Part shown: positions 5,001-38,843 of the stretch, in pieces | Numbering within the stretch: the stretch's first letter is position 1 | Layout of the letters: each line of letters opens with the position of its first letter | Notes under the pieces: generated by a model | Database searches by the model: none | Told to the model about the DNA's origin: nothing | The model's input: only the letters and a program-made list of their open reading frames with translations | DNA from: Bilabrum cf. latius | Taxonomy: Eukaryota | Direction of reading: 5' to 3' | DNA: 64,000 bases | NCBI GenBank assembly: GCA_965178125.1 | Contig: OZ237747.1 | Span: 1,054,001 to 1,118,000, forward strand | Program-made: the position numbers and the translations under genes

Positions 5001-7509
5001 CTTTGTGGACGATGCCGCCAGCGCTTCGGGTTCGTCGCAGGCTGACGCCGGGCCGGAGTCGACGGTGGTTTAGCTTGCTCGGTCTATCCAGGAAGAGGGC
5101 GGTGCCTGGGCCCCGTCTGCCAGGGCACACCTCGCGGTCGAGGGCCTCCTTGCTGGGGAACAAGCGGAGGTGCGGGCGGGCAGGGCGGCGCAAGATGCCA
5201 AGTCCAAGGCGAAGCAGGGTCCTACGCGAGCGGAAGGCAGGGGATCTCCGCTCCTGCACAAGACACGGACTAGCGCAGGCGGGATGCAGGCAGCGGCTTC
5301 CTCAGCGCAAGCCAGGCAGCCGCACAGATCTCGCCTGACTCACTCTGCGACCGCCGCGGCTGGGTCGATGAGACCGTCTCAGTCTCCCTCCAGCGTGGGC
5401 AGCGCCCCCATCGTGAGGCTGTTCCCCAACAGAAGCGAAGAAGAAGAGGAAGAAAAGGCGGGAGCAGCGGGGTCTCGGTACGGCTACGGCGCGCTTGCCG
5501 CGGCCATGCCGATCCCACCTTCCGTGCGCCGCTTGCGTCCGTTTGTGTCATCCCTGGAGGAGCAGGTGCATCGCATGATGGTGGAGATGGTGCGGGCTGG
5601 AGACGCCGTGGGCATGCAGGTGGCAGTGTACCGGCGGGGCGAGCTGGTGGTGGACGTGGCCGGCGGGGAGCTGGGCATGGACGACCCGAGGCAGGTGCAG
5701 TCCGACACTCTGTTTAACGTGTTTTCTGCCAGCAAGGGCGTGCTTGCTGCTGGCCTGCATGTGCTGCTGGAGGACGCCCATGCAATGAAGAGACAGGAGG
5801 ACGCTATGCTGAGAGGTGGTCACGCGGGCGGAGCTGAAGCTGCTTCTAGTACGCTGGATGCCACACTCACTGAGCTAGGCTACGGTGACAGGATCGGAAA
5901 CGTGTGGCCCAAATTTGCAACGAACGGTAAGGAGGATGCTACGGTGGCAGACGCGTTGACTCACTCCACGGGGCTGGCACACCACCTGCCGAAAGGCGTG
6001 ACCGCAGCGACGATGTGCGATCACAACAAGATGGAGAACTACCTTGCGCACTGCAAACCCATGCACCCTGTGGGCCAGCGGGTGGCGTATCACTACTACA
6101 ACTACGGCTGGATCGTTGGGGGTGTGTTGCGGCGGCTGTATGCAAAGTCACAGCCGGGCCGATTCTTCGACGATCGAGGGCAGCCCAGCGCAGCGGCTCC
6201 CACTGCCGGTGGCATCCTGAAGGAGGTGCTGCTTAGTCGAGTGGGCGGGCATGCTCTCAATGGTGAGCTGCACCTTGGGGTGCCCGAGGAGCTCGTGAGT
6301 GGCAGCGCGCCCCGTCTAGCTCGGCTGTGCGGCGACTTCGGTGTCACCAGCCGGGCGGTGGGCGAGTCGTCCGATGACGCAGCCGGCGGAGCGAAGGCAC
6401 CGGCGGGTGCTGGCGCCGGTGCAGACGATGCAAGCGGGTCTGGTGGCCCAGACAATAATGAGTCAGGTGGGGACATGCCCGCCGCGGGCTTGTTTGGCGG
6501 CAGCGGTGGGGGCGGCTCAGGAGGTGGAGGGCCGCAGGGTGGCATGGGCCGTCTGATGGGCCTGGTGCAGATGGCGTCCAACGTGGGGGACGATGACGAG
6601 GACAAGGAAGGGTACTCGATGGATGGTGGTGAGGACACAGATTCTACCCATGGTGCTGCGGGGTCTACCGGTGGGCAGGGTGGCAAAACAGGGGATGGCC
6701 ACAGTGGCAAGGACGGAGGCGTTCTATCGGCCATTGATGCGGCTGCTGGCAGGCCGCCCCGTCCGGCGCCGGCTGGAGACGCATCCCGGACAGAGATGCT
6801 GGGAATGTTGCGTGCAGTCAAGAGGGTCCGAGGGCGGGAATACCTGATCGACCCGCGGCTCTTCAACCGCGCCCCCCTCCGCCGTGCAGAAATCCCCGCA
6901 GCCAACATGCACTGCAGCGCCCGCGCACTGGCTCGGGTCTACGCGTGTATGCGGCCCATGGACTCGCCTGCAGCTCATGCGCCAGGCAATGGCTCGGGTC
7001 GTGACGGCCAAGCTAATGTGCATAGCAGGCCGCGAGGCTTGCTGTCAGAGGATAGATCCCAGGCGATCAGAACGGTTGCGGGGAGGCAGGAGTCCTCCCA
7101 GCTGCAGAGCTTGTTCGCTCCAGGGGAGGGGCAGGGGGCCGCAGCGAAGGGGGCTGGAAGCGGGGGCAAGTCGTTCCTATACTGGGGCCTGGGCTACCGC
7201 CTGTACCTTCCTTCTGGCGGGGGAAGAGCGGGAGGAGCAGGCGCGGCTGTGGGTGCGAGCGGTTCCAGGGCTTGGTCGGGCAGCGAGGGGTACACGCAAG
7301 GTGGGATGCGAGCTGCATCGTCTCCGCCAGTCGTATCTCCCGCGTTCGGGCACACTGGTGTGGGCGGATCCATCGGGCTGTACGACGCAAGCAGCGATAC
7401 TGCTGTGGCCATCACGGTGAACAAGCTGGACTTCTCAATGCGGCCCACAAGGCACCTGCTCGAGATGCTCGCGTTCGAGATGCGCCTGCCGCACCTGAGG
7501 CTGCACTGA
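2020..7509 (+). CDS. Fusion protein: SCP2-like sterol-carrier domain, hydrophobic/TM segment, ABC1 (UbiB/ADCK) atypical kinase and serine beta-lactamase-like domain; 1829 aa with 6 in-frame TAG
   Basis: One frame from ATG 2020 to TGA 7509 with TAG at 2224, 2314, 2701, 2887, 3043 and 5071, and no TAA/TGA. SCP2-like MNPMQAYFQGLIQFEGD. ABC1 motifs KVGQYLSSRAD, PLASASIAQVHKA, VKVQHP, ELDF, NGDPHPGN, LLDFG. Beta-lactamase motifs FSASKG (SxxK), YYN and GHTG. Confidence 0.88.
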
Positions 7510-14691: not shown

Positions 14692-17600
14692 ATGGCTGCG
14701 GTAGCAGGTGCTGGCACGCAGAAAGCAGAAGAAGTGTTTGCCAATGTAGAGGTGGAAGAAGGTGAGCTGATCGCAAATTTTGTGCTTGGAGTCCGGTTGG
14801 GATGCCTCAGGAATGAGCCTCGGAACTACCTGTTGTTCTCGCTGATTGTGTCTTGGAGTGCATGTTTACATTAGACCTTGTCATATTTATGTGACAGATC
14901 TCTTATTGGAAGGTAATTTAGCGGGGATTTGTTGCTGGGCTGCCGATTGGCTTCGTGCAGACAAGTGGCAGGGCGCCAGAACAGTGTCGCCCACTGGGTC
15001 CAAATCATTGTGAACTGGCCAAGTAGTCAGACCAGCTGAAATGAAGACTGTGTTTGAAAAAGTATGGCATAGTGACACTCGGATGTTGCTATAGTTGAGT
15101 GGAATCGTTGCCAGCTGCTACCCTTTGGGGTGGATCCTTGGTTTGCCGGTCATTTAATGTAAGACCACAAAAGATGTTACCCTATTGTAACAAATTTTGC
15201 ATTGTGTATATATCCAATTGACTTGTTGCAGGCACCAAGATCTGGCGGGTGAACAAGTTCGAGCTGGAGGAGATCCCGGAGGCTGATCACGGCTCATTCT
15301 ACGAGGGCGACTCGTATATCGTGCTTCACATGCACCCTGGCCCCGGTGGCGACTCGTCACCGGACAAACTTGAGATGGATATTCATTTCTGGCTGGGGAA
15401 GGAGTCCTCCTAGGACGAGTAGGGCGCTGCGGCGCTCCTCTCGGTCGCCCTGGATCAGGCGTTCGGCGACCGTCCCGTGCAGCACCGCGAGGTGCACGGG
15501 GAAGAATCCCCGGAATTCTAGTCCATTTTTCGCAAGAACGGAGGTCTAATGTACCTGTCCGGCGGCGTGGACAGCGGGTTCTCTCACGTGGATCCGGACG
15601 CCGAGATGAAGGCTCTTTCCGAATCTCCCCGCCTATTCCACGTCAAGGGATCCAAGAATCCCACGGCCGAAGAAGTGGAAGCCAAAGCCACCAGTCTCAA
15701 TGAGGGAGATTGTTTCGTTCTGGACGCGGGCAACGAGCTGTTCCTGTGGTCAGGAAGCAGCTGCAACCGCAAGGAGAAGGCCACCGCCACCAAGCTCATG
15801 TTCCGCTTGTACGACGCGCGCGGCGCCGCGCCGGAGCGGGTGCTGATGAACGAGGAACCCGAGCACGAGGGCTTCTGGGGCCGCCTCGGCGGCGACGCCT
15901 CCGACGTGCAGCCCGCCTCCGCAGCGGGTTCGGACAAGGCCGCCGACGCCGCCACGGAGCTGTACCGCGTGACCGAGGCCGGGGACGACGAGGGCGAGGG
16001 CTTCGCCGCGGACAAGGTGGAGGGCTCGGGCGTGGAAGGGGCGCCTACCAAGGAGGACCTCGAGAAGGACGGGGTGTACGTGCTGGTCGCAGGGAACAAA
16101 GTCTTCGTGTGGTTCGGCCAGAAGAGCGAGCGTGCGCTGCGGAAGCAGTACGTGCAGGTCGGCGAGAGGCTGCTTGCATCTATCGGCCGCGGGGACGACA
16201 CCAGGAGCGTGGGCATTTCCCAGGTCAAGCAGCACATGGAGAGCGCGGTCTTCAAGGGGTATTTTGTTCCCTGGGAGAAGCCCCGCCTGTTCGACTACAC
16301 GTCGGCGCCCGCGTCTGGAGCTGGGGCCGACGAGGAGGAGGAGGCGGACGCCAAGGAGCTCCTGGCGCAGGCCGCCAAGCGCGCCGAGAGGTCCAAGGCC
16401 GCTGCACGGGGCGGCGACTTCGAGGTGGAGAGTCTCGAGGTGCTGCGTGTGAAGGGCACGGAGAAGGAGGAGGTGCCCGAGGAACAGATCGGGGAGTTCT
16501 ACTCCGGAGACTCGTACATCGTCAAGGCGAAAGGGGCGGGTGGCCGCGGCCGGCTGTACTTCTGGCTGGGCCAGGATTCGGAGCAGATCGAGCAGGGTGC
16601 TGCCGCCCGCATGTCCGTTGACGAGGCGGCTTCCATGGGCTCCGGGACCCCCCAGATCAGGCTGCTTTAGGGGAAGGAGCCCCCGCATTTCTGCGCGCTG
16701 TTCGGCGCCAAGATGGTCGTGCACGAAGGAGGGCACGCGGACGAGCCCGAGGCCCCCACGGCGGAGAAGCCCCACCTGTACCACGTCAAGGGCCAGGAGC
16801 CCTCCACCTCAAAGGCGGTGCAGGTAGAGGCGAAGGCTGCCAACCTCAACTCCGGGGATGCCTTCGTGCTTGTGGGGCCCGAGTCTGTGACGGTGTGGTG
16901 CGGCAGCAAGTGCTCCGAGGAGGAAACCGAGGTTGCAACCGCTGTGGCGCAGCGGCTGGGGAACAAGCTCGAGGTGGAGGGCCTCGAGGTCGAGTCGGTG
17001 GCCGAGGGAGAGGAGCCCGACGCCTTCTGGGAGTCGCTCGGCGGAAAGGAGGAGTACACCACGGAGGTGCCTGACGAGGAGGCAGGCCAGCCCCCGCGCA
17101 TGCTGCACGTGAGCACCAACACGGGCAAGCTGAGGGTGGAGGAAGTGCCTCAGTATTCGCAGGAGGACCTGGAGGCTGACGACGTCATGCTGCTGGACGC
17201 GTGGTCCCAGGTGTTCGTGTGGGTGGGTCCCAGCGCCGACGAGGAGGAGAAAGAGGGTGCCCTCAAGATCGTGGACGATTACGTCGCCGCGAGCGGGACC
17301 GACAGGACTGGCGTACCGACGGTGGTGGAGCACGCCGGCAGCGAGAGTGCCATGTTCAAGGCCCTGTTCCACGCGTGGGAGGACAAGGCTGAGGAAGCCT
17401 TCGTGGATCCATACGAGGCGAGACTGGCCGCGATGCGGGAGGAGAAGGAGGCCAAGAGGGCGGCGCTGGAGGCGGAGGAAGAGGCCGAGCAGGCGGCTGC
17501 GGCTGCCGCGGCGGCCAGGGAAGAGGCGGAGGCAGCCGCTGCCGCTGCGGAAGCGGCAGATGACGACGACCGAGAGGCAGCCGAGGCCGCCGCGGCGGAA

Positions 17601-17969
17601 GCAGCCGCTGCTGCAGACACCGCCGCCGCTGCTTCGGAGCAGGCTCAGGCAGCCGTGGTGGAGGCCCACGAGCAGTTTGACAAGGAAACCAAGGAGCGGC
17701 TGGCCAAGGCCCAGGCCGAGAAGGAGGCGCTCATCGCCAGCATGAGCGGCAAGAAGGCCGCTGCCGTGCAGCCCGGGGATGCAACCTACTCGGTGGATGA
17801 GCTTAAGGAGGCCAAGGCCGGCGGCGACCTGGACATCGAGTTCTCGCGGAAGGAGGAGTACCTCTCAGATGCGGATTTCGCCGAGGTGTTCGGGATGTCG
17901 AGGGAGGAGTTCGCCGACAAAAAGCCGTGGAAGCAGGCACAGCTCAAGCGAAGCCTCGGTCTGTTCTGA
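14692..17969 (+). CDS. Villin/gelsolin-family actin-binding protein with C-terminal headpiece; exons 14692-14761 and 15232-17969; ~935 aa, 4 in-frame TAG
   Basis: Phase-1 intron 14762 (gtgagc) to 15231 (ttgcag). IWRVNKFEL...[10 protein letters not shown]...[16 protein letters not shown]...[11 protein letters not shown], further gelsolin repeats, IRLL*GKEPPHF, and headpiece [21 protein letters not shown]...[19 protein letters not shown] at 15411, 15420, 15519 and 16668. Confidence 0.93.
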
Positions 17970-23381: not shown

Positions 23382-26314
23382 ATGGGAAGAGGTGTAGCCG
23401 CAGCTGCCGCATGCGGCATTCGTGGAACTACGGCAGGCTATTGTGATACTGAGTCATGCTATGAGGCCGGTACTGGGAAAAGTATGCCAGCTGGGCCGTA
23501 TGAGTTCTCCAGAACACCGATGGCCTCTGCGCCGCCAGCCGACGCGGTTGCGGCAGCCATACCGTACATATTCGCCAAAAGCCCGAAAGATCTTGTCTCT
23601 AGGATAGAAACAGTGGTAAGAGGCACGTCAACAGAGGTGCTCGTCACGATTCCCGTGTATAACGAAGACAAAGAGAGGTGCATGGAAACAATTTATGGCA
23701 TATGTGACAGCCTTGAGCGAGGGCTGCCTCCCGCCACCGAGGATGATCCCAGTGGGCGAGCAGTGCAAGCCGGCGGTTCACCGGTTAACGTTCAAGATGG
23801 AGTTGCTGCCGCCGCCGCCGCTGCTACTGCTGATCCTGTAAATGGAGCTCAGGCTGCCGCCCCATCCGGCGCCAATCTCAGCGCCTAGACTTTCTCGTCC
23901 GGCACAAGGTACCGTGATCAACTAAGAGCCAGCGATGTGAGGGTATGCATGACTTACGATGGACATGATAGGATTGATGACACAGTCAAGGAAGAAATGC
24001 TGACAACAGACAAATATTTCAGTGAGCGCATCATTGATCCGGCCTACTTTGATGTGAAGAAGCGCGAAGGCGACGGTGTCCACGTTTTCCACAAACGGGT
24101 TTACGTTCGAAAACGCGGAAGCACTTTATATCCCCACGTGAGACCGCTGAAGATATATTAGCGTTTGAATGTCGTGGACTATGCTGTACCTGTGCAGTTT
24201 GAGTCGCTTTGTCCCCCGTTGCCACCGACCCAATCCCACCCACGCAGCGCATCCATCTCATCGTGTGCATCAAACTGAAGAACGCTGGAAAACACGTATC
24301 TCAGCTATGGTAGTTTCAAGGGATTGCGCGTGCGCTGCAGCCCCGGTATATTGTACTAGTTGACGCTGGCACACGACCACTAGGCGACGCAGTGCTTCGG
24401 TTGTGCGATGCGATGCACGCCAATCCCCAGCTCGGGGGCGTTTGCGGCAGAATCAAGCCGCCCAAAGCCCCTGCCATCTGGGAAGGCATATCATACGTGC
24501 AGACGTTTGAGTATGCTGCATCGCACTACCTTGACAAGGTATTTGATTCATTGACTGGGTGAGTTGCATTTGCAGTGTCCAAGCACGGCTCCACTGGCTC
24601 GGCGCAGGCTGGATACACTGCTTGAATTCTGAACAGACCAATTTGTCAAGCATTTGCATCAATTCTCCGCGCAGCTTTATTCCGGTGCTTCCTGGTGCGT
24701 TCTCCGCGTATTCATACAAGGCCATTGAGGGAGCGCCGCTGGACAAGTACTTCGAGTTGCTCGCAGTTGATAAGACTAAACTGACTGCATTCCAAATGAA
24801 TGCACTGCTCGCAGAGGACCGCAAGCTTGCCATGTATATGGTTGGAAAGGCAGGGTCTAGCTATCTCGTAAGTAAAAGGAAAACTTCTGTGGGTGCGGTG
24901 CGTCGCCAATGACTCGAAGCTCCCGCTGTCGTGCATTTCAAATGCTGAGCTACTCGCAGGCCAGCTACTGCTACGACGCACTTGCCGAGACCGATGTTCC
25001 AACAACGGTGACGCGATTGGTTGTACAACGACGCCGCTGGACCAATGGTTCCTTCTACGTCTTCATTGAGCTCGTGATGAGCGGGATGCAGTGAGTCCCG
25101 AGATAGAAGCCCAAATTTGCATGAAAACATTAGCTTCCACGGCCCACAAGTCCGCACTACCATGAATACGCGCATGTTTGGCAATTTCTGCTCCACTTAA
25201 TCTTCTTTGCAGTCGCATCTTATGTCGGTCAGGCCACAGCACGTCCAGGCGAATCGTGCTGCTGCTCAATTTCGTGTGGCATATGCTGCATGAGGCCATG
25301 AACTTCTTCAGTCTAGCCTTCGTGTTCCTGATATACTTTGCTACTATATCGTAGATCGCGGATCGCGCCGGTCTAGGGGACTGGTTTGTGTACACTCTCA
25401 TCATCGGCCTGCTACTGTGCGTGGTGGCCAGCATGCTCATTGCGTAGCGAGCACACTACACGTCGTACGGCCACTGGTACCATGCAATATGCTTGTACTT
25501 AGCAGTACTTAACATCGTAGCAGTAGTGGGGGCTGCTGGGTTATTGTTTGAACAGGGAGACGATCCCGGGACTAGCTGGTTGCCTACATCAGTCCGGTTC
25601 AATTTGCTGATGGCTGTGCTTGGCGGCGCGACGGTACTTGCCTACACGCATGGAGTTCTAGCTGAGACTGCTTGTGGTGCGCCATACTACTTCTTCTTCC
25701 TGCCTTCTACAATTGTGCTGTCAGATCTGACGGCGAAGATGCAGCAGCACCACTTCAGCTGGGCCGAGCCCGCGGCGGCCAACAAGACTGTGAGTGAGCA
25801 GCATAAGCAAAGGCAAGTAGAGCTTGACCATTTTGGCATGGTTTGGGGCCTTTTTGGAATTTCTAGCAACATCGTTGTTGGGTGTGCCCTGGCCGCCTTC
25901 AACCCCCGGCTTGACCTAGTGATGGCCTTCCTCTTCATATTCATGATTTTCAGTCTAGGGGTGCGGATTATCGCATCGGCTCTATACTTGATCGAGCCAT
26001 GGTACAAGAAAGCCGGCGATGCACTTGCAGATGGGACTGACCGCTGTATGTCGAACCTGGGCTGCGGATGTTGCTTGGAATGGCTGCAGCCAGCGGCCTG
26101 TCTGCCTTGCTGCTGCCCGTGGCGGTGGACAGCTGCAAGGCTTGCGGTTGACGACTCTCAGCCTCGGCGCCGGACTGCAGCCGATATTGCTGACCCACAA
26201 CGATTGCAGCATGACGAGCAGCCCGGGCCATACTTGGAATGTGCGTAGCAGTCGAAGCGCCCTGCGCAATGGCCACGCATGCTGAATGCAGGGCATTCTC
26301 ACGAGCCACCGTGA
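23382..26314 (+). CDS. Chitin synthase (GT2), paralogue 1; multi-exon, true 5' end probably further upstream
   Basis: [55 protein letters not shown], then TM helices. Introns at 24138-24247 and near 24558, 24868 and 25092. In-frame TAGs include 24311 and 26246. Ends TGA 26312-26314. Confidence 0.88.
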
Positions 26315-27098
26315 CAAGATTCAATCATTGCGAGGGCGGTACCAAGTGATGCTCACTTTGGCTTTGAATCATATATTTGTACAGATGACAGAGGAAAAAA
26401 ACAGAAATGAAAAAGTATCGTCGCTCGATTTTGCTAACAGAACAAGAACTCGGGGGCGCAGCCTCTCAGCGGCCAGGTAATCTGTCCCGCCTATTGCGGT
26501 GGCTGCTGACCAGTCCGCAGAGTCGACAGGGGTACCGCTCCGTAGCCAAACTTACTGTACTGCGTGACCAATATGCAAATGACTGCTGCTGCCCCTGCAC
26601 AACCTCAAACTCATAGAGACTCGCCTGTAGCACACAACTACTACGTGCTCCACCCGTGCACATGGATCTGCTCTAGTCCCGCACTGCTTGCGTCTTTGAT
26701 TCTAGAACACATGCACAAGCCAGAGCTCATGCGGAGTAACGACACGTCTGAGTAGCGACACTACATAGAGCTCGGTGCCACTATCAAGGCGGTGACGCAC
26801 TTGAGTCTCGCTGCGTTCTGTGGCAGTGCAAACGGCAACCTCGGAGGTGGCCGAGGGATCACGGTCATGTATCTTCCACCGTTGCGATCGCAACAGGACA
26901 GCAAATTAGGTCATTTCTCGTGATTGCTCGAACTCTTTTAATTTGTTCTTAATTTAGATACAATACGGATTTTACGGGCAGTTTGCTTTTTTCAGATGCC
27001 ACATCCGGTCCGGATCTGGCGCAGTCACCACCGCCCATAGGTGAACTCAGGGTCATTCGAAGGACCTATTGAGCACCGCTCGAAGAAGTATACCAACG

Positions 27099-30000
27099 TT
27101 AGTCACACATTGGTGCTAGAGGACTGGCCTAACGCGAAGTAGACACCTTGGCGGAGTTCTGAGAAGCTCCAGCTGACGGGGGCTGGGCGCTTCCGCCAGC
27201 AAGGACAACGGAGCCTTGCTCAGCCTGTGCGGCATGATCTGTCGTCTCCGCGTGGACCTGACAATGTTTCTAGGACCCACATACCTAGCTGCCAATGTGG
27301 CATTCAGAGCCGCGTAGGCGACTCATGCTGCTTAGAACAAGTGATTTAGAAGCCGATGGCCTGCGGGGGCGACGAGGCCTGCCCGCTGCTGCCTCCTTGG
27401 CTGCAGATCGCGCCTCCCAATTGTTGTCCGGATTAAGACCAAACACAAACTCCTCAGATTTGTTACGCGTGAGCCGTCGTCGTGCGCCAAGAAGCATATT
27501 CCGCCTATTTCCCCGCCATGGGCACAGCAAGCTCCACGACCACCATCCCTCGCAACTCTCCGGCAGCACACATGTGCTCCGAATCCAAGCCCTCCAGGTC
27601 TGGGGGCAGCAGCAGTAGCAACGACATGTGAGCCTGGCCAGCCACTCAGCTGCGTATATCAGGGCGTTGCACGCGCCCTTGTAGGGCTTCTCAAGAAGGT
27701 AGATGAAAGAGAAGAGAATCCGAACTGAAAGGCTGAAGGTGCCGGCGTAGAAGAGGGACCACATGGTTGCTTCCCCCGTCGTGTCGTAGACAACAACAAT
27801 CAGCCCAAGAAGCAGATTGAAAAACAGCACGAACATCACAATGCAGTCACGAAAGGACTTTAGTTCGCTTTTCAGGTGCTGCTCCTTTGCTTCAGCTTCT
27901 TTCCTCATGGCTGCTTTCGAAACGCACTGACCGTCAGCAGCATCCTCCAACCTGTCCTTGTCCACGCCTGTATTCGATTCGGTTTGCGCCGATTTCAGTG
28001 CTCGCGAATGGTATTTCCGAATACCATCGCTAGTACGCGATTGTCGTGACCAGACTGGAGGCTGGCCTGGTCCTCCAGCGCCGTCACCACGTCGCTGAGG
28101 CGGGGTAAGTGCTGGTACCGGCTGGCCTTGCCCGGAGTGCAGTGGGGGTCCCGTTGAAGTCCGAGGAGGTCGAATGTGACGCGCGCCCTTGAGGATGTTG
28201 GTATCGGATTTGAAGTGAGGCGTAAGCGTGATCTTGTCCGCTGCAGCCGGCTCCCCCTATTGACTGTCGTTGTCACAATCCTAGATCTGGTCGCCAGCAA
28301 GCTTTGAGGCAGCCGCGGCACCAGACCCGGATCCCTTCTATTCGCTTGCATTGCATGCCCCCTACGCTTTAGCATCCGTCAGGCCCGTCCATTCCTCTGC
28401 ATGATCGCCAGGCAATTGTTCGTAGGGAACAATGCGTCGAGTCCCATCGCCGTGTTGTTGATGTTGGTGAACCTGGTGTCCTGCGGAACGGCGAGCCGGC
28501 TGCGATGCACGCTAGGGCTGCTCAGCGGTCGGGTCATCCTGCTTGGTCGGTGAAGACCACGTCACTTCGTGGAGCCTAAGGAGGGCAATCTGGAAGATCA
28601 GCATGACCGTAGTTGGCATGAAAGCCACAAAGGCAGGGGAGGTCCATACGAATGTGATGAAGTGCCCGTGAAGCAGAGCTGCGAGTGCCATACCAGAGAG
28701 AGTACCTACGCCAACCCACCTAGCGATAACGATGTCAAATACGAATGGAGCGGCCATCGTGGAGTTTCTGGCCAAAGTGTCGTTGAGCAGCATCACTGAC
28801 TCGTTGATGGCGGGAGCCGTAGCGTTGACCAGGTCCATGGATACATTTACTACGTCCGCAGTGGCGTTCTGGTGAAGTGTCCCGATGTCTAACATGGTAC
28901 TGTTCGCAGTCACCGTGGAGTTTGGGTCAGCCATGAGAGCGCGCTGGGCAGCTCCTGCTCCAAGTTCAGACTCGTAAGTTGGTGCAATGTCGTCGTCAAG
29001 AACCCCAGACAAGCTTGCAAGGGAGTATACTGATGCCCCAACAGCAGCAATGCTGAGGACACCCAGGTACAGCATCATTGTGTTGTAAACTGAGCTGTAC
29101 CGTTGGTAATCTGCATCAGGCGCCATGATGAGGATGTACAGCACGATCAAGACAAGGCCAAAGATTCCGGTGTAGGCTATAAGGTCACCTGCCTGTCCAA
29201 GGAACTGCGCCAGCTGAAACAGCATCACGCTGTAGGTGACGACAAGCAGCGTTGGAGAAACGACCTGCGGCACAAAGTGCATCGTTGTCCAGCACACATG
29301 CATGCCAATCGCAGTTTTGCGGCCACAGCTGTGGCCGGACTTGTGCATCAAGTCCCTGCGAGATGTAGGCAATTAGGCAAGTGGGCAAGTTAACACTGGT
29401 TGACAAATGTCAAAGCAGTATTTTGTTGCGTAAAAAGAAACGTATGGCTCACCGGGAGTTTTTGGCAATGTATAGACTCAGCGTAGCCAGGGTTCCATTG
29501 AGCCACCGCCTCCTCTACTTGATCAGGGCCATCAGCGTTTCGGGTGGATCCGTCGTGGCCACAGCATCGCTGACGTATTTGACCTGCGAGTTCAAGATAG
29601 GTCGAATGCTTTGTATTCATATAGAAGAAGCAATTATTTTGTGAGTTGTTCACTTTCCCTGCATACGCATCGCCTTAGTCAGGTGCTAGGATGATGCAAC
29701 ACCCCCGTGTAGTACGTCTAGCACTCACCGTCCAGCACTCGTCGATCTTTGCAACAAGGTACATCACCAGCAGGCGGTCCTCCGCAAGCATAGCATTCAA
29801 CCAGAACGGAGCTAGCTCTGTCTTGGGCGTGTCCACCTTCTCGAAGTATTGCTCCAGTGGCTTGCCCTTGAGAGCCTCCCACCTGAAAGCAGAGAAACAG
29901 CCTGGCAAGACCGGAATGAACCTGCAACCATAAGGTGAAAGGAGTCCACCGCTGCCTTGAGGTTCTACTGATAGACAAAAATAAGAGGATGATGTCGTAA

Positions 30001-31696
30001 CCCGAGCGTAGTGCGCCGGGGCTTCAACTCACCCAGTCATGGAGTCCAGGGTCTTGTCGAGGTAGTGAGCCGCGCTGTACTCGAAGTGTTGCGCGCACAG
30101 CACTAAGTTGTTCCAGGCGAATCCGGACGGCTGAATAGTGCCACAGTTACCAGCAAGCTGCGGGTTGACTTCCATCGCATCCAGAAGCTTGTAGATGGCC
30201 CCGGCTTTCGGCTTGGTTCCGGCATCCACGAGCATGAAGTACTTGGGGTTGATTCGTGTAGCGGCACCCATGAGCTGCCATTTCTGGGACTTGTGCTTGC
30301 CTCCATTCTTGCCCTTGATGCAGACAATGACAAGTACGGGCTGCGATGTGTATGGCTAGAAGATGTGGGGCCTGAACTCGCTTCAAGCTGGCGGTGGGTA
30401 GGTGAGCAACGCATGTAGCACGACGTCTGCAAACTCACTGTATTTTGGAAGAAATGCGGGTCCCCATCAAGGTTAGATCGCACTCTGACCCAGCGCTAGA
30501 ACATGTACATGTATGGCGAATTGCCAGACCTCTCATGCTGCTAAATGTACTGCGGATCGATGACTGGGTGCTCAAAAAGCCTCTTGCTGCTGCCATCTAT
30601 GCCTTTCAGCGTGCCATCAAGCAGCTGCACTGTTGATTTGTTCATCTTGTCCCAGCCGTCGAAAGTAAACATGATGATTGGCTGCCCTGCGAAGAGTCCC
30701 TTTATCGACTCACGGTCTGGCTCGGCCTGAGGCACCGCAGCTGGACCTTGCCCTGCCTCAAGATCTACACCGGAGACATCTAGATCCACAGCGTGTGCAG
30801 AGGGAGCTCTAGTAGGTGCCAATTGTGTTACTTTGGGCAACCGTGCAGGTTTCGCCTGCCCTGGTGCTGGAACTGGAGCCGGTGCGACTTGTGTTGCTTT
30901 GGGCGATGGCGCAGATTCTGCGTGTCCTGGTTCGAGTGATGAGGCCGACGCGGCCGTAGCTGCTCCGCCGTCGGGCTGCGGCGATGCTGCTGGTCCGTCT
31001 GCTGGTACTGCATCCCTCGACTATGCAGTGTTTTCAGTGGTCTATTCACTGTCATTTGGGTAGCACTGTAGCAATGCGCCGCAACACGAGCCGCAACTGC
31101 AAGCCTGCTAGCAAGAGCACAGCTTGTCGCAGCAGCACTCGCAATCCTCTGCGTCATCCTCGTGTGCCTCACATTGTCGCTCTGGCGGGTCGCTAACAGG
31201 CTGAATCGTCCGTAAGTCTTGAACGCTTGCCATGATTCCCTGGACGGTGTCCTGTATTTGCTTGGGTGCTTCTGAGTACCCGGCCACTGAAATTAGGGTG
31301 GATACCCCTTCCTCGTAGGCACCGAAGGGGTCGTGCAAATCCCACCCATCTGGGGAGCAACACAAGATGAACTGCTTGTGTAGCTCAGCAGAAGGAGTGG
31401 CGCTGTCGCAGTCTTCGTCAGATTCATGATCTGTGGGCTAGATCTACTGCCAGGTAGCCTCATCTGAGAATGCGTGTCGCCTGCCGGTCTGAGACGCCGA
31501 CCCCGTTGCCACGCTTAGCCGCGGAGTGTTATCTATCGAACCTCTTGGGCTGAACATCCTGCCATGGCCAGCAGTTCGCTTGTCCTGTGGAGCCTTGCTT
31601 CGCTTGTGAGCTCTGGGCTCCTTGTCCTGTTGCTGCGAGGAGGTGCGCGCCAGAGCCTGAGCGTCTGATGCAGTGCTTGCTGCCGGTCCAGTATCT
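27099..31696 (-). CDS. Chitin synthase (GT2), paralogue 2; multi-exon, 5' exon(s) upstream of ~31700 not resolved
   Basis: VAGYSE, FTFDG, LVDAGT, QHFEY, LPGCFSAF, MLAEDR, TDPP and (TAG)RRRWLNGT, then TM helices with a long hydrophilic insert (27965-28512) interrupted only by TAGs. Ends TAA 27101-27099. Confidence 0.88.
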
Positions 31697-33671
31697 GCGA
31701 CATATGGGAACGTTATGCGCTTAATTTGTTTCTGTGGCTAAGATGCTTCACGTGGAAAAGCTTTGGGGCGGGCTGGTTGTGATTGCTCTGTTCAGCGATG
31801 CAGGCTCGTTGTTGCCGACGGGCTGGAACATAGGCTATAAATCCAGACATATCAGCGTGTGCGTGGTGGAATGCAAGCTAAACATGAAGCAATATTCAAT
31901 AGTTTATCACATACAAAAGTAGAAGCTCCAGAATGTCTCCACGTTTGCACCGAATGGCTGCAACAATCCTATGGTCAAAGTGACAACTACATCAGAACAC
32001 AGAAACACAGCACGCGCAAGACTCCGTGGTGCCAGATATACCGCAAAACAAAAGCAGTACATGTTTAGGCCGGCGGGCCAATCGAATGGATCGGAGTCCA
32101 GCGAATTCTCACCTTTGCTGTTTGATACTGCCTTGCCACCGAGCGGTGGTTCGCGGCTCTGCATTCGTATCAATAGAGAGTGCCAAGTCCAAGCTCTACG
32201 CTCCCAATTGACCAGTTCTGTACCTTCGCCTATTTCAATTTCTGTACGAATTCTGGTCTCCTGAGAATGAACAGGAAGTGCGGTCGTCTGCCTGCGTGGC
32301 TACAGTAGCACTCCCATACCGGAACAACCATATTGTCGGGAAGTCTAGAATTGCAAGCCAGCTGGTCCGCGTAATGATAATTTGCCTATATCAATCCATA
32401 TGCAAGCGCTGGAGTGTTTGTGTGTTTTAAAAGTCCTCATACAGCACGAGGGGCGCACAGATTGCTCACACCTGACCGCGCCGGAGTGCCAAGCAAGGTG
32501 ACGTATTTTGGATACCGTGTACCCAGTCGCTTTACAAGCCCTGGCTCACGACTTAACTGGTGAATTCATATTCATTGTGTGGAATTCAGCCGTGTAGATA
32601 GCTGCTCCTGTTGTGAAAACCGTTTTGTCCGTGTTGTCAAGGGTCCAATGACATCAGTATCGCGCGGTGCACGCAGAGTCCATTATTTGCAAAGAAAGAC
32701 ATTTCCAGACATTCTGTATCGTGAACAATTTATATTCGTTTAATAATTGGATTTTGCGCCCCTTGGTTGGCGACCGCAAGATGGCCACATGTGGTCGCAA
32801 CCATGATTTGACTCCGGATTGTGGGCGTGCAGGCGTGCTCCGCTCATTATCGCGTTCCAACTGGCGCCATCAAATAATTGCCGCCAGCTACCTACAAGAA
32901 GATATTGTTCAAGACAAGACTGGCCTGCGATCCAGTCTTGCTTCAAGGCGGTGAAAATACATAGATCTATATTGGATATTTGTGTATGACATGATGCCAG
33001 AGTGTACGCGCAACCTAGTCTCGTTAACAATCAGACATGGCAAGACCTGACAAAGCTGTGCCTGTGCGCGACCCTTGACCAGACTGACCGGGGCTGGGAA
33101 GAGCACGTGCACTACTCCGCCGAGGAGGAGGGGGTTGGGAGGGTGGGCAAAAATTACCCAATCTCCGCCCCTCTCCTGAACACAGAGAGGGTATGCGCGT
33201 CATCGCAAGCAATCCGTTGGCTTGGTCGCACCTTCCGGTCGCAACCGCCATCGGAACCCAACGAGATGTTCACGCGCTCCTACTCTGGCATCAACACCGA
33301 ACCCCATGCGGTGTTGGGATCATCATGCAGTGCACAGGACTGATGTTGGCTCCTCATTTGTAGCGGAGCTGGCAACGCTTCTACTATCACCCTGGTGACC
33401 TCCTAGGCCCCAAGTTCACTTTCAAAGTGATGAGTTATAACGGAAGACGCTAGGTAGCCGATTAAAACTGAATTCCACAGAATCAGACTGTGGAATGCTC
33501 TTGTTTCCCTGAAACCGGAACACAGGCAGAGCGTTGGACCATCTTTCACGCATCGACTCACATTCACGCATCGAGGTCAAAACTAAAATAGGAACTTTCT
33601 TAAGGTTGCGCTCTATCCCGTAATAATTCGATTAATTTCTAAAGCTTGGCTTCAACTAGCTGCCAAACAGC

Positions 33672-36600
33672 ATGGCATCAGCACCCCATTTAGAAGAACA
33701 GCATGTCCAAACACACCGACGGCCAAACTCGGCCGCTTCCAGCTCGAGTCACGGTAAGAGATCAAACAGAGACGGGTATATGACGCAAAGCTAATGTTGA
33801 ATGTATCGTATTATGCCGTAGTAGCCGGCTGATCGCATAAATATGCTGGTGGTTGCAGTGTTGCTGGGAGGCTGTAGTGCTACTGAGCTTCCAAAGTCCC
33901 AGGCAGTCATCAATTTAACCCAAATGCTGCGATAATTGAAGCTCGCAGGAGGAATAACGCTTGAAACAGCTGGTCATAGCGCCATAGGACAGAGTAGTGG
34001 GACGATGGAAAGGCTATCTAGCACGACAACAAGGCAATGCACTCCCGTTGAAGGCGCGGGATGCGAAGGGAGGCCGCCCTGGCACAACTACTACGCAGCG
34101 AAGCCGGCAAATTGCAAGAAGCTGTTGTCAAGACATCCGATGACTCGTTTACTCGCTGTAATTTCGGCACACAAGGAGAAAGGTGCAGCCATTACGCGGT
34201 CCATCCAAGGTGTGCGCACGTCACTTGCAGCCCTCGGAGAAGCCAAGGAAAGCGCATGTTGTTCTTAGCCGCTAGAAAGAACTTTGAGCTCCCCATCAGT
34301 GCGGCCAGAGGGTCAAGTTATATCATAGATTTCTTCGGCACCGGCCCCGCAGACTTTCAGAGAGCAGCTGAATGCATCAGAACTGACCGTGTGCATAACG
34401 TTCGACGGGCTCAGAGCTGTGCTTGGACCGAAAAGGAACATGGACGTTCCGCAGGATGGAAGCGACACGGCGATGGACCTTCTCACCAATAAAGATCAAA
34501 TGTACTTTGACCAAGCTCTTATCCCAACGGGTGTCATCCCCTCAGACGAGCTATCGTAGAACGCGATGTCATCACAGGCCGGCGCCGTAGTGTTCGAGTC
34601 AACGGCGAGGATTCGTCGCCCTGGAGCGCCATTGCAAGGCCATGGAGAAGACCGTTACTACCCCGAGGTGAGATATCACCGGAAACTCGCCGACTTCTGC
34701 AGGCGTATGATGGCCGCAGACTCATCGCATCCACTATTCTCGTGTACACTTCTGCTGCAGGAAATTCACTTCATCGTGTGCATTAAACTAAAGAATGAAG
34801 GCAAGTACGTGTCCCAGTTCTGGTAGCTTCAGGGTGTAGCAAAGTGCTTGGATCCAACGTATGTGGCCCTCATCGATGCTGGCACTCAGCCACTGGACGA
34901 CGCAGTGATTGAGCTGGCCGACTTCATGCATGCCAACCCGCAGCTGGGTGGAGCCTGCGGTAGGCTTGGCACTCAATCCAGCCAGAAAATGAACGAATGC
35001 TTCATCAACTTGCTACAGCAGGGTGAATATGCAGCATCCCATGTTCTTGACAAGCCTCTTGAGTCCTTGGTCGGGTGAGCACGTCCGTATATCGTGCGCC
35101 AAATGCGATAACACTACTGTGACTCGCACATCAGATGCTTGCCCCTTTTGATAGCCTCCAGCTTTTACAACGCTAGCCTTCCATTTTCAGGTACATTGCT
35201 GTGCTTCCAGGCGCATTTTCGATGTACTCTTGGGAGTGCATATCGGAGCAGGGTCAGAAGTTCGATCCCGACTCTCCGCTGGACCTGTATTTCGTGGCGA
35301 TGGGAGAGAAGCTCCCCGAGGGTGACCCGCACAGGATCAAGCTCACACCTCTTCAGCTGAACTCTAAGCTCGCTGAAGACCGATAGTTGGTCGTATGGGT
35401 CGTAGGCAAGATTAACGGCAAGTGGACGGTGAGCAAAAGTTCATTGACGTCACTGCAACGCGTAGCCGCTGTGCCTGCATCGACCTTGAAGCAGCATCAT
35501 ACCACTAGTATCGCAGGTTGGCTATTGCTATACAGCTGTCGCCGAGACTGATACCCCAAAGTCGATCACGGACATTATTAAGCAACGCCGCCGGTGGAAT
35601 GTCGGCTCGTTCTCGGCGTTCGTCAACACGTACCTCATGGATGGACTATGGTAAGCGATTTGCTTGCAATCGGCCCCGCTTGCATGGACCTTTAGAGTGT
35701 GCGGAATAGTTGTAGACATGAAAACAACACGCATGCAGTGTTTTTGCTTCCGCCAAATTCCCAGGGTCATGATGAAGACGAAGCATCACGTCCTTCGGAA
35801 GGCGATCTTCCTCATCCAGGCCGTGTGGTACATTTCGCAATGGCTAGCCACATTCATGAGCGTCGCCCTGATGTGGATGTCATACTCTGCAGCAATAATG
35901 CACTTCGCGACATCGATTGGCGGCATCGGTGGCATTGTATTCAGCAACGCTCTACACTTCGGGCTCGGAATGACGCTCATCGCATGCATCCTTATTGCAC
36001 GTGGCAAGAGATTAGACGGTTATGAGACATGGTACACGGTATTATCCATCATTCTGTCCATGTACAACATAATGGCTATCATCGGCGCGGCGATGGTCAT
36101 CGCATCCTTGAGCACAGCTGATGCGAACCCTCTTGGGATCGACCTCGTGCCTTGGTACTACGCAATGGGGTCTGCTGTGCTCAGCACCATGGCTTTGTCG
36201 GCATGCTACGGAGTGTTCTATGCTACAATGTTTGGAGGTTTTGTTTTGTTTGTATTCCTTCTACCGTCGAGCATTGTCCTGCTCTGGCTAACCGCAATGA
36301 TGCGGACCAACGTGACGGGCTGGTCGGGTCACTCAAGCGGATCCGATGCAGAGCGCCAAGGCGAACTCGACAGTCACGGCACTCTCATGGCGATGTTTGC
36401 AGTTGTCTTGAACTGCCTCTTGGTTGTATTGTGCTCTGGGTTGGATCCGTCCTATCGGGTCGTGATGACGGTGCTCTTCCTGTTTGCGGTGGCGAGTTTG
36501 TCAGTCCGAGTGGTTGCATCAGCTCTGTACCTACTGGAGCCATGGTACAAGAGGCTTTGCGATAGTTTCGCTAACGGTGTCGATGATTTCCTCACATGCA

Positions 36601-37667
36601 TGAGTTGTGCCCGCTGCATGACGTGCCTGCCGGATTGCTGCGGCTGGTAGCTTTGCTGCCCCTGGCGCGGTGCGCGGGAAAGGCACGCACAACGGGCCGC
36701 CGCGCGGGCAAGTCTCCAGAAACAAGGCTCTACTGAATGCGGTTCTAACGGCTGTGACGAAGTGGGTCAAGATGGATCACGTGCTCCGCCCGGGACTGAC
36801 GGGATCGACAACGACCGTGGACGCGATGCCGGAAAAGGCATCGGAGGCCTTGGCGGCGGCGCTGCCGCTGCTGCTGCTGACCAGCAGAACGCGCAAGACC
36901 AAAGCATGGTTGCCCCTTCCCCGCGACGTGGCAGTAGCGAGCAGGAGTACGCTGCATAGGACCAACGTATGGCTGCCCCTTCCCCGCGACGTGGCAGTAG
37001 CGAGCAGGAGTACGCTGCATAGGACCAACGTATGGCTGCCCCTTCCCCGCGACGTGGCAGTAGCGAGCAGGAGTACGCTGCATAGGACCAACGTATGGCT
37101 GCCCCTTCCCCGCGACGTGGCAGTAGCGAGCAGGAGTACGCTGCGTAGGACCAACGTATGGCTACCCCTTCCCCGCGACGTGGCAGTAGCGAGCAGGAGT
37201 ACGCTGCGTAGGACCAACGTATGGCTACCCTTTCCCCCCGACGTGGCAGTAGCGAGCAACAGGATATAGTCAGCGGAAAGCCAGATCCCAAAGCAGTGCC
37301 CGTACGGCATGACGACAGTCGCGGCATACCGCCACCCAGGGACACAGTGAGGGCTGACGAGGCCAGTGCTGACGTGGTGACTCAGGCTGGGTAGGGACTC
37401 GCAGCAGCAGCCGGCCCAGCAAACACCGGCCTGGACATCGAGCAAGCAGGTAGCGAGGATCCTGATGACGACCAGAGCAGCCAGCACGGCTCCGTCGAGA
37501 ATGCGGAGGTCAATAGTGCAGTATGGAGACTGGCGGAGGCTGTAGCGGCTGTAGAGGCACAAGGGGCTCCAAACACTGGCTTAGGCGATGGTGCTGCTGC
37601 ACACGAAGATAGTGAGGGTGGCGGCCAAGTTGTGGAGCCAGGTGTGATCGCTGGTGGCAGCGAGTGA
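33672..37667 (+). CDS. Chitin synthase (GT2), paralogue 3, with repetitive C-terminal tail; multi-exon
   Basis: ATG 33672 (caaacagcATGgc, similar to the villin start context). Introns 33754-33948, 34668-34760, ~35076-35190, ~35429-35516 and one starting ~35651. Motifs ITFDG, LIDAGT, QQGEY, VLPGAFSMY, KLAEDR, AETDTP, QRRRWNVGS, then TM helices. Reads through TAG 36648 into the tail and ends TGA 37665-37667. Confidence 0.88.
36894..37259 (+). repeat. 63-bp coding tandem repeat, ~6 copies (QDQRMAAPSPRRGSSEQEYAA), in the tail of chitin synthase 3
   Basis: Units start at 36894 (CAA) and at 36957, 37020, 37083, 37146 and 37209 (all TAG), spaced exactly 63 bp. Confidence 0.95.
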
Positions 37668-38105: not shown

Positions 38106-38843
38106 TGAGATGCTGGCTTCCGTGTGGCAGCAGTTGCTTGCGAAGGTGCCATAGAGAGAAAGGATGGGGCTTTTCAATATACTGCTTGTGCGATGTGGGG
38201 TCTAGTGGTACGCAAGATTCGCAAGCCGAAGCCACAAAATCGTTTTGCTCTAGCCTAGTCCATGGACGCTTTGAGTTGGAAATGGTGAGAATGGGAAGGA
38301 CAAGCAGCCTGACGATAGTGTTGATTGAGATGGAAGTAAATAGTGGTATCAAATTACTATGTCTATGATTAAAGGAGCTAGAGGCAGATCAAAGCAACGA
38401 GTTTGCGGAGTTTCGGTAGAAACATCTGGGCGATGCTCCTGCAGATCTCTAGCACTAGCCATGGAGGCGTAAAGAATGGCAACCAAAGCGGGGTATGGGA
38501 AGCAGCAAGTTATGCATGTTGCACAATATGATAAAGTTGAAGGTTCTTCTCCAACGATGCCAAGCCGATATTGGGCGCTGTGCTCACACCAGCAGGCCTG
38601 CCTGCCACACACTGCCTTGCGTGCAGGCTACTGCAGTTCCCGCCCACGCACCCGACTGTCTCTGGCGATAGATGATTGTATCAATTAAATCCGCTTAGAT
38701 CCGGGCTAGCGTGGCGTGAGGCCCTTCGTGCAGTGCAGTTGCAGTTGGACACAACAGAAATGATGAGTAGCTCTAGAATGGATCCCCAGACCCACAACGC
38801 GTCACCCATTCAATTCTGACGATTGCGGTCAACTTTGGCATAC

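What the first reader, a model, noticed from the sequence alone, without database searches (positions are those of the whole stretch)
29503..29517. The invariant Q of the chitin synthase QRRRW motif is encoded by TAG
Minus strand reads ATC AAG TAG AGG AGG CGG TGG CTC AAT GGA, i.e. IK*RRRWLNG (TAG at 29517-29515). QRRRW is the essentially invariant processive-GT2 motif of chitin synthases. The two paralogues in this window have CAA at that position (about 25026 and 35583). The gene is otherwise intact, so this codon identifies the amino acid as Gln rather than Leu, Glu, Trp or Pyl.
Basis: partly seen in the sequence, partly recalled or inferred. Interest (0 to 1): 0.85.

Follow-up and report, generated by a model that had tools for sequence, protein, structure and literature searches.

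The report
TAG codon means glutamine here
In this organism the usual stop codon TAG is read as the amino acid glutamine, so the TAG inside the key motif of this chitin synthase gene is an ordinary codon of a working gene and not a break in it.

Summary
On the minus strand, TAG at 29517-29515 lies exactly at the Q of QRRRW in the middle of three tandem chitin synthase genes. The two paralogues have CAA there. It is not a lesion. TAG is a general sense codon in this window. Five checked gene models (6101 codons) hold 43 in-frame TAG but no in-frame TAA or TGA. Reading TAG as sense raises ORFs of 500 aa or more from 2 to 14. A 915-aa villin-type gene carries 4 TAG. Spliced RNA-type contigs from a second study keep 19 of the 28 TAG of two chitin synthase genes unchanged. 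Glutamine is the best reading: it is the commonest residue at 4 of 8 conserved columns, including 79 of 82 at QRRRW, and the likelihood favours Q. TAA and TGA remain stops. This is the rare "UAG only to Gln" code known from Iotanema and a few ciliates. The nearest named relative of one gene is the stramenopile Cafeteria. My literature searches found no stramenopile nuclear code change. No tRNA, eRF1 or peptide evidence was available, and RNA cover of this exact codon was not shown.

The parts
29515..29517 (-). TAG codon at the Q position of the QRRRW motif of chitin synthase paralogue 2 (CHS2), codon 626 of my model
   Evidence: The column is Q in 79 of 82 occupied homologue rows. It aligns to Q of solved chitin synthase 7wjm.
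29453..29583 (-). CHS2 exon 5 (43 codons plus split codons), which carries the motif
   Evidence: Acceptor ctcgcag| and donor |gtgagc were located. The best PDB matches are chitin synthases.
27099..32164 (-). CHS2 gene model: exons 32164-32113, 31694-30439, 30340-30033, 29921-29729, 29583-29453, 29355-27099. 1398 aa, 16 TAG, stop TAA. The start codon is inferred.
   Evidence: Intron 31695-32112 is seen in spliced contigs of X5 and X6. The profile of outside homologues matches at E 1.2e-91.
23382..26314 (+). CHS1 gene model: exons 23382-24137, 24248-24558, 24675-24867, 24960-25090, 25213-26314. 830 aa, 5 TAG, stop TGA. CAA at 25026-25028 codes the QRRRW Q. The start codon is inferred.
33672..37667 (+). 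CHS3 gene model with five introns seen in spliced contigs (33754-33948, 34668-34760, 35075-35190, 35429-35516, 35651-35764). 1129 aa, 12 TAG, stop TGA. CAA at 35583-35585 codes the QRRRW Q.
30275..30277 (-). CAG (Gln) of CHS2 in K-W-Q-L-M-G. It aligns with TAG of CHS1 (24311-24313) and TAG of CHS3 (34824-34826).
36894..37271 (+). 63-base coding repeat in the CHS3 tail. The first unit begins with CAA, the next five begin with TAG at the same repeat position.
15222..17969 (+). Villin-type gene, main exon (acceptor near 15231; the small first exon was not found). 915 codons open, 6 gelsolin repeats and a headpiece. In-frame TAG at 15411, 15420, 15519 and 16668. TGA follows directly after the conserved ...GLF end.
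2020..7509 (+). ABC1 kinase-like plus beta-lactamase-fold gene, 1829 aa in one frame, with 6 in-frame TAG (2224, 2314, 2701, 2887, 3043, 5071). Stop TGA.

Best explanation
The organism reads UAG as glutamine throughout its nuclear genes, while UAA and UGA still end translation. This is NCBI table 15 in effect, the 'UAG only to Gln' variant. The TAG at 29517-29515 is therefore an ordinary Gln codon. It gives chitin synthase paralogue 2 the canonical QRRRW motif, and the gene is intact, spliced and transcribed. Shown here: TAG is used as a sense codon across the window, TAA and TGA are kept out of reading frames, TAG stays TAG in spliced transcripts, and Q fits best. Inferred from what is known of other such codes (PMC11687900 introduction, PMC5304391 abstract): a tRNA with anticodon CUA charged with Gln decodes UAG and does not read UAA, and the release factor eRF1 no longer acts on UAG. 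Neither molecule could be looked for, because only this window is held.
For: (1): ORFs of 500 aa or more number 2 under the standard code, 14 with TAG as sense, 2 with TAA as sense and 8 with TGA as sense. The longest ORFs are 812 and 676 aa under the standard code, and 1900, 1556, 1445, 1344, 1106, 1032 and 1003 aa with TAG as sense. This holds although TGA is the commoner triplet in all six frames. (2): in five gene models (6101 codons) the in-frame counts are TAA 0, TAG 43, TGA 0. In the two other frames the counts are TAA 18 and 30, TAG 47 and 34, TGA 110 and 119. (3): a villin-type gene of 915 codons with 6 gelsolin repeats and a headpiece aligns end to end with gelsolin (E 1e-111), has 4 in-frame TAG, and ends ...GLF followed by TGA. 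(4): contigs of runs X5 and X6 (second study) skip GT..AG introns that the DNA-type contigs of X1 and X2 retain. The listed pieces have 0 other letters and contain 13 of the 16 TAG of CHS2 and 6 of the 12 TAG of CHS3. UAG therefore stays in the mRNA. (5) Residue. Among 119 villin homologues the commonest residues at the four TAG columns are Q 91, Q 53, L 61 (Q 4) and Q 80. Among 90 chitin synthase homologues the QRRRW column is Q in 79 of 82 occupied rows, and in 86 of 88 BLAST pairs among all 150 representatives. The summed log-likelihood over 8 columns is Q -17.7, next M -26.7. (6) Within the window, the TAG of CHS1 and of CHS3 after the conserved W aligns with CAG in CHS2. The CHS3 repeat has CAA in unit 1 and TAG in units 2 to 6. 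(7) TAG makes up 43 of 279 Gln-type codons (CAA 67, CAG 169), with a similar share in each gene. (8) CHS2 is as good a chitin synthase as its paralogues. The profile from 90 outside homologues matches at E 1.2e-91, against 5.1e-97 and 3.4e-82. The QxFEY, VLPG, EDRxL, DAGT and QRRRW motifs are all present. (9) TAA as a stop: 5 of 13 long ORFs or models end in TAA and 8 in TGA. Two paralogues end ...CTVN and ...CTVS, one followed by TAA and the other by TGA.
Against: Four of the 8 conserved columns have another commonest residue: L 61 of 117, F 53 of 90, E 61 of 89 and I 57 of 84. In the ABC1 gene the two alignable TAG columns face E and H in all 3 homologues, which are close to one another. No tRNA gene lies in the window, and no eRF1 or peptide data were available. 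The QRRRW codon itself is not inside any listed RNA piece. Its bin has depth 2.28 (X5) and 1.99 (X6), which is compatible with exon cover but does not show it. The DNA-type runs that confirm the T are probably the window's own sample. The absence of TAA in frame is partly circular for the ORFs, though not for villin or the homology-built models. A dual meaning of UAG is not excluded: CHS1 and CHS2 have a TAG 21 and 9 codons before the first TGA or TAA. All of this rests on a single 64-kb window.
Confidence: 0.9

Rival explanations
1. CHS2 is a pseudogene or a null allele. On this reading a CAG or CAA to TAG nonsense change killed one of three redundant tandem copies.
For: TAG is a stop in the standard code. 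Tandem paralogues often decay. The other two copies have CAA here.
Against: The gene has 16 in-frame TAG but no TGA or TAA in 1398 codons. The 772 codons after this TAG are open, with a chance of about 2e-8 to 2e-7, and still match the paralogues (E 7.8e-13). All splice sites are in place. Spliced contigs cover its 5' intron and 2 kb of its last exon. Its profile score equals that of its paralogues. Unrelated genes such as villin and ABC1 also carry in-frame TAG.
Confidence: 0.02
2. The T is an assembly or sequencing error, or the codon is edited to CAG in the RNA.
For: A single base separates TAG from CAG. RNA cover of this codon was not listed.
Against: Contigs of X1 and X2 cover 21963-33018 with 0 other letters, and no variant row is listed at 29515-29517. 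Contigs drop rare variants, and these runs may be the source sample. In the spliced contigs of a second study, 19 other TAG codons of CHS2 and CHS3 remain TAG. With 43 in-frame TAG in five genes there is no need for a special event at this one.
Confidence: 0.02
3. UAG is a sense codon but not a plain Gln codon. It would stand for another residue such as Glu, Leu or Lys, or have two meanings: Gln inside genes and stop near some 3' ends.
For: Non-Q residues are commonest at 4 of 8 conserved columns. E and H face TAG in the ABC1 homologues. CHS1 and CHS2 have a TAG 21 and 9 codons before the first TGA or TAA. UAG to Leu, Ser and Glu codes exist elsewhere (PMC11687900, discussion passages read).
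Against: No other single residue fits. The best non-Q residue (M) lies about 9 log units behind Q. The two most conserved columns are Q, at 79 of 82 and 91 of 118. The CAG and CAA equivalents inside the window point to Q. None of the 13 long ORFs or models needs TAG as its stop.
Confidence: 0.06

Closest known systems
Nuclear code of Iotanema spirale (Metamonada, Fornicata): UAG = Gln, UAA kept as terminator (Panek et al. 2017, PMC5304391; abstract and outline read)
   Same: UAG is read as Gln while UAA and UGA stay stops, so the meanings of UAG and UAA are uncoupled.
   Different: The lineage is unrelated: here the nearest named homologue of one gene is a stramenopile. In I. spirale UAA is the primary terminator. 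Here 8 of 13 long ORFs end in TGA and 5 in TAA. The evidence here comes from one 64-kb window, not from a transcriptome.
Ciliates with UAG-only to Gln: Hartmannula sinica, Trochilia petrani and Protocruzia tuzeti (McGowan et al. 2024, PMC11687900; abstract, introduction and discussion passages read)
   Same: The same codon and the same amino acid, and UAA is fixed as a stop. [quoted passage not shown]
   Different: Those are ciliates. This window has ordinary GT..AG introns of about 90-420 bases and 50-66% G+C, and its villin groups with Cafeteria. No suppressor tRNA could be sought here.
UAR to Gln code (NCBI table 6: many ciliates, some Ulvophyceae, Hexamita, Streblomastix, Amoeboaphelidium; listed in PMC11687900 discussion and PMC2984419 abstract)
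   Same: A stop codon of the UAR pair is read as Gln.
   Different: In that code UAA is sense too. Here there are 0 in-frame TAA in 6101 codons against 43 TAG, although CAA is 67 to CAG 169, and TAA ends 5 of 13 ORFs.
UAG to Leu (rhizarian exLh, some phyllopharyngean ciliates) and UAG to Ser (Scotinosphaera), as cited in PMC5304391 and PMC11687900
   Same: UAG alone is reassigned and UAA is retained as a stop.
   Different: A different amino acid. L scores about 12 log units below Q here.
Chitin synthases with solved structures (PDB 7wjm and its group, 7stl, 7xs6; motif roles from the review PMC12653383, passages read)
   Same: The TAG exon aligns to ...DAVARTD.P..L..LISQRKRWLNG... of 7wjm with the TAG facing Q. 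QxFEY, VLPG, EDRxL and QRRRW are present. In the review, QRRRW lies on an interfacial helix at the channel entrance, its third Arg binds the donor diphosphate, and its Trp binds the acceptor.
   Different: Identity to outside homologues in the catalytic exon is only about 35-40%. The genes have long low-complexity ends and a Cys-rich tail. The CON2 WGT(K/R) motif was not identified. No enzyme activity has been tested.

Membership tests
Nuclear code variant 'UAG = Gln, UAA and UGA = stop' (NCBI table 15 in effect; Iotanema type) | In-frame UAG in conserved, expressed protein genes | tested here: met
   43 TAG in 6101 codons of five models. 19 TAG lie in spliced contig pieces with 0 differences.
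Nuclear code variant 'UAG = Gln, UAA and UGA = stop' (NCBI table 15 in effect; Iotanema type) | UAG positions correspond to Gln in homologues | tested here: met
   Q is the commonest residue at 4 of 8 conserved columns, and the likelihood gives Q -17.7 against the next residue at -26.7. CAG and CAA stand at the same place in paralogues and repeat units. The other 4 columns show L, F, E and I.
Nuclear code variant 'UAG = Gln, UAA and UGA = stop' (NCBI table 15 in effect; Iotanema type) | UAA is not used as a sense codon and ends genes | tested here: met
   0 in-frame TAA of 6101 codons, against 18 and 30 in the other frames. 5 of 13 ORFs end in TAA. Paralogous C-termini are followed by TAA in one and TGA in the other. 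The sample is small.
Nuclear code variant 'UAG = Gln, UAA and UGA = stop' (NCBI table 15 in effect; Iotanema type) | A tRNA with anticodon CUA and Gln identity | not testable with these tools
   No tRNA gene in the window, and no whole genome is held.
Nuclear code variant 'UAG = Gln, UAA and UGA = stop' (NCBI table 15 in effect; Iotanema type) | eRF1 altered so that UAG is not recognised | not testable with these tools
   eRF1 is not in the window, and no genome is held.
UAR = Gln code (NCBI table 6) | UAA is read as Gln as well as UAG | tested here: not met
   0 in-frame TAA against 43 TAG, while CAA:CAG is 67:169. Making TAA sense does not lengthen ORFs.
Chitin synthase (GT2; Pfam Chitin_synth_1 / Chitin_synth_2) | Signature motifs QxxEY, EDRxL and QRRRW (named as the CHS signature in PMC12653383), plus VLPGA and D.GT | tested here: met
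   CHS2 has QHFEY, VLPGC, EDRLL, (TAG)RRRW and DAGT. CHS1 and CHS3 have the same set, except QQGEY in CHS3.
Chitin synthase (GT2; Pfam Chitin_synth_1 / Chitin_synth_2) | A significant match to the family profiles | tested here: met
   A single CHS2 exon scores Chitin_synth_1 at 51.3 bits (cut-off 25), but Chitin_synth_2 at only 22.3 (cut-off 27). The spliced proteins could not be sent to the Pfam tool. Instead, a profile built from 90 outside homologues matches CHS1, CHS2 and CHS3 at E 5e-97, 1e-91 and 3e-82, and 9 of 9 of those homologues tested are above the cut-off for both Pfam families.
Chitin synthase (GT2; Pfam Chitin_synth_1 / Chitin_synth_2) | Makes chitin (enzyme activity, product) | not testable with these tools
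Pseudogene | Stops of several kinds, frameshifts, lost splice sites, decay after the lesion | tested here: not met
   Only TAG occurs in frame. The 772 codons after the TAG are open. Splice sites are intact and spliced contigs exist.

The most novel reading that the evidence does not exclude
This would be the first nuclear stop-codon reassignment in a stramenopile: a Cafeteria-related, GC-rich, intron-poor heterotroph that reads UAG as Gln but keeps UAA and UGA as stops. That would be one more independent origin of the rare code in which UAG and UAA are uncoupled, in a lineage with close standard-code relatives for comparison.
Probability: 0.45. Interest if true: 0.75.

Novelty: new member of a known kind. 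Interest (0 to 1): 0.6.

Why it matters
Codes in which UAG and UAA have different meanings are rare. A 2024 paper (PMC11687900, discussion passages read) lists for UAG-only to Gln one fornicate and three ciliates, and no stramenopile. A further, unrelated lineage would give another natural test of how a CUA suppressor tRNA and a changed release factor can free UAG without touching UAA. There is also a practical point. Any annotation of this genome under the standard code will break most long genes, as shown by ORFs of 500 aa or more going from 2 to 14 in this window, and will call intact genes such as this chitin synthase pseudogenes. The QRRRW codon is a handy single-site marker of the reassignment.

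Tried and rejected
The following steps led nowhere or gave weak results.

- Whole genome of the window: none is held, so tRNA(CUA), eRF1 and rRNA could not be sought.
- There is no tRNA gene and no Rfam family in the window.
- My first Pfam scan used the wrong frame for the TAG exon (protein 1).
- No RNA holder is listed on record for the stretch. X5 and X6 are taken as RNA-derived only because their contigs are spliced. RNA cover of 29515-29517 itself is not shown, because 400 pieces and 8 joints were cut from the output.
- The search for related loci on metagenome contigs got no answer from the machine twice. No DNA of relatives was obtained, so there is no TAG-versus-CAR comparison between strains and no dN/dS.
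- The search for homologous proteins with the CHS3 exon and 'longer' found nothing.
- The listing of cluster members gave no organism names for the chitin synthase relatives.
- The ABC1 search gave only 4 unnamed hits.
- P0001 (98% identical villin) has Q at all 4 TAG sites, and P0122 (95% to the CHS1 exon) has Q at its TAG site. The code used by that gene caller is unknown, so I did not count these as evidence.
- The paralogue-against-paralogue tally of TAG partners is noisy, because the copies are too divergent.
I redid it on cropped catalytic regions. This used 90 of the 91 homologues of 500 aa or more, out of 148 representatives P0123-P0270. One was dropped by a length filter, and those under 500 aa were dropped before the count.
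- The small first exon of the villin gene was not found.
- The careful tree did not finish, so only the quick tree is reported.
- Literature: six searches found no paper on a stramenopile nuclear code change. The library lacks most subscription journals, and supplements were not opened.
Full report
**Observation.** The minus strand at 29520-29491 reads ATC AAG TAG AGG AGG CGG TGG CTC AAT GGA. Between 23000 and 38000 only three places have the form "codon + three Arg codons + TGG". They are CAA at 25026-25028, CAA at 35583-35585 and TAG at 29517-29515.

The sequence on both sides of the TAG (…AVATTDPPETLMALIK-TAG-RRRWLNGT…) is colinear with the two paralogues and with outside chitin synthases. 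The TAG is therefore a codon inside an exon and not the end of an intron. The exon runs 29583-29453, between a cag| acceptor and a |gtgagc donor.

**What surrounds it.** The window is eukaryotic nuclear DNA with 50-66% G+C. It carries three tandem chitin synthase genes. CHS3 (plus strand, 33672-37667) has five GT..AG introns that are skipped in contigs of runs X5 and X6 but kept in the DNA-type contigs of X1 and X2. From these introns and from homology I built three models:
- CHS1: 23382-26314, 830 aa.
- CHS2: minus strand, 32164-27099, 1398 aa.
- CHS3: 33672-37667, 1129 aa.

One CHS2 intron (31695-32112) is also seen spliced in X5 and X6. The start codons are inferred. The three models match a profile built only from 90 outside homologues at E 5e-97, 1e-91 and 3e-82. 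Nine of nine of those homologues tested exceed the Pfam cut-offs of Chitin_synth_1 and Chitin_synth_2.

CHS2 keeps DAGT, QHFEY, VLPGC, EDRLL and (TAG)RRRW. A review names QxxEY, EDRxL and QRRRW as the chitin synthase signature. It places QRRRW on an interfacial helix at the entrance of the translocation channel (PMC12653383, passages read).

**TAG is a sense codon throughout the window.**
- ORF lengths: ORFs of 500 aa or more rise from 2 under the standard code to 14 when TAG is read as sense. They stay at 2 when TAA is sense and reach 8 when TGA is sense. The longest go from 812 aa to 1900, 1556, 1445 and 1344 aa.
- Frame counts: in five gene models (a villin-type gene, an ABC1 plus beta-lactamase-fold gene, and CHS1-3) the reading frame holds 0 TAA, 43 TAG and 0 TGA in 6101 codons. 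The other two frames hold 18 and 30 TAA, 47 and 34 TAG, and 110 and 119 TGA.
- Villin-type gene: it is open for 915 codons and has six gelsolin repeats and a headpiece. It aligns along its length with gelsolin (E 1e-111), has four in-frame TAG, and ends …GLF followed by TGA.
- CHS2: it has 16 TAG. The 772 codons after the motif TAG are free of TGA and TAA (chance about 2e-8 to 2e-7) and still resemble the paralogues. The pseudogene reading is therefore rejected.

**RNA.** The listed pieces of the spliced contigs have no differences from the window. They contain 13 of the 16 TAG of CHS2 and 6 of the 12 TAG of CHS3. UAG is thus present in the mRNA, and editing is not needed to explain these codons.

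The motif codon itself is not inside a listed piece. Its bin has depth 2.28 (X5) and 1.99 (X6), but most pieces were cut from the output, so cover of that codon is not shown. The type of runs X5 and X6 is not on record, and I call them RNA-derived only because of the splicing. Contigs of X1 and X2 confirm the T (21963-33018, 0 other letters), but these runs may be the source sample.

**Which amino acid.**
- Villin: across 119 homologues (the 98%-identical P0001 left out), the four TAG columns have Q 91, Q 53, L 61 (Q 4) and Q 80.
- Chitin synthase: across 90 homologues, the QRRRW column is Q in 79 of 82 occupied rows. The other three conserved TAG columns have F 53, E 61 (Q 5) and I 57.
- BLAST pairs: among all 150 representatives, Q faces the motif TAG in 86 of 88 pairs.
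- Likelihood: the summed log-likelihood over the 8 columns is -17.7 for Q and -26.7 for the next residue, M.
- Inside the window: the TAG that follows a conserved W in CHS1 and CHS3 faces CAG in CHS2. In the 63-base repeat of CHS3, unit 1 starts with CAA and units 2 to 6 start with TAG.
- Against Q: the four non-Q columns above, and E and H facing two TAG in three mutually similar ABC1 homologues.
- Share of Gln codons: TAG is 43 of 279 Gln-type codons.

**TAA and TGA.** Neither occurs in frame in the five models, although CAA is 67 against CAG 169. Of 13 long ORFs or models, 8 end in TGA and 5 in TAA. Two paralogues end …CTVN and …CTVS, followed by TAA and TGA respectively.

The code is thus UAG = Gln with UAA and UGA as stops. 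A dual meaning of UAG near 3' ends cannot be excluded: CHS1 and CHS2 have a TAG 21 and 9 codons before the first TGA or TAA.

**Mechanism.** Shown: sense use of UAG, its persistence in mRNA, and the best fit to Gln. Inferred from the literature: a CUA-anticodon tRNA charged with Gln reads UAG but not UAA, and eRF1 no longer acts on UAG (PMC11687900 introduction; PMC5304391 abstract). No tRNA lies in the window and no genome is held, so neither could be tested.

**Lineage.** The best named homologue of the villin-type protein is from Cafeteria roenbergensis (43% identity, 711 bits). Oomycetes follow at about 480 bits. In a quick single-gene tree the window groups with Cafeteria plus an unnamed protein (SH-aLRT 99). 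The tool warns of unusual composition in these rows, and the careful search did not finish. The best solved-structure match of the TAG exon is chitin synthase 7wjm; that this entry is the oomycete enzyme is recalled, not given by the call. I read the organism as a stramenopile, perhaps near the bicosoecids. This rests on one gene.

**Comparison and novelty.** UAG-only to Gln is known from Iotanema spirale (PMC5304391) and from the ciliates Hartmannula, Trochilia and Protocruzia (PMC11687900). That paper's discussion names no stramenopile. Six searches of the paper library found no stramenopile nuclear code change. The library is incomplete, and the sequence data are public, so the code may already be known to its producers. 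I file the finding as a new member of a known kind.

**Verdict.** The TAG is a Gln codon of an intact, transcribed chitin synthase gene in an organism that has reassigned UAG alone.

Noticed in passing
window 32840-33406: A high-copy repeat lies between CHS2 and CHS3. Summed contig depth is about 2580 (X1) and 8020 (X2), against about 20-64 in the flanks. Contigs break here, with many loose ends and variants. There is no Rfam match.
   Followed up: no
window 38820-63377 (+): A one-directional array of large paralogous genes (38820-42137, 42358-46389, 46736-51070, 52327-55335, perhaps 56590-57582). Each is 1000-1450 codons with 12-21 in-frame TAG. They are low in complexity and have no Pfam match. 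A neighbouring ORF of similar size, 60282-63377 (12 TAG, no Pfam match), did not match any of them.
   Followed up: partly
window 19098-20447 (-): A piggyBac-type transposase ORF (Pfam DDE_Tnp_1_7, E 1.8e-10) with 4 in-frame TAG, ending in TAA. The mobile element seems to use the host's code.
   Followed up: no
window 2020-7509 (+): A single 1829-aa gene joins an ABC1 kinase-like domain to a beta-lactamase-fold domain. Three unnamed proteins of about 1500 aa share this architecture at about 40% identity.
   Followed up: partly
window 7869-8804 (+): A gene with seven near-identical 29-aa C2H2 zinc-finger-like units followed by a 3CxxC zinc-ribbon domain, with one in-frame TAG.
   Followed up: no
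window 27300-27700, 26100-26250, 36560-36660: All three chitin synthases share a Cys-rich tail (…CC.P..WR…) after the last membrane segments. I found no named domain for it.
   Followed up: no
CHS2 about 31700-31600; CHS3 about 34000: Outside homologues have the consensus T-m-Y-N-E-d near the start of the catalytic region. There CHS1 has VYNED, but CHS2 reads AGYSE and CHS3 SAHKE (my reading of the models). The two longer paralogues may bind the nucleotide sugar differently.
   Followed up: partly
proteins P0001, P0121, P0122: Public assemblies hold proteins 98% (villin), 86% (CHS3 exon) and 95% (CHS1 exon) identical to the window's. A close relative therefore exists whose DNA could show TAG-to-CAR exchanges.
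   Followed up: partly
window 1-18000 versus 18000-36000: G+C falls from 58-66% in the first 18 kb to about 50-55% over the chitin synthase cluster.
   Followed up: no
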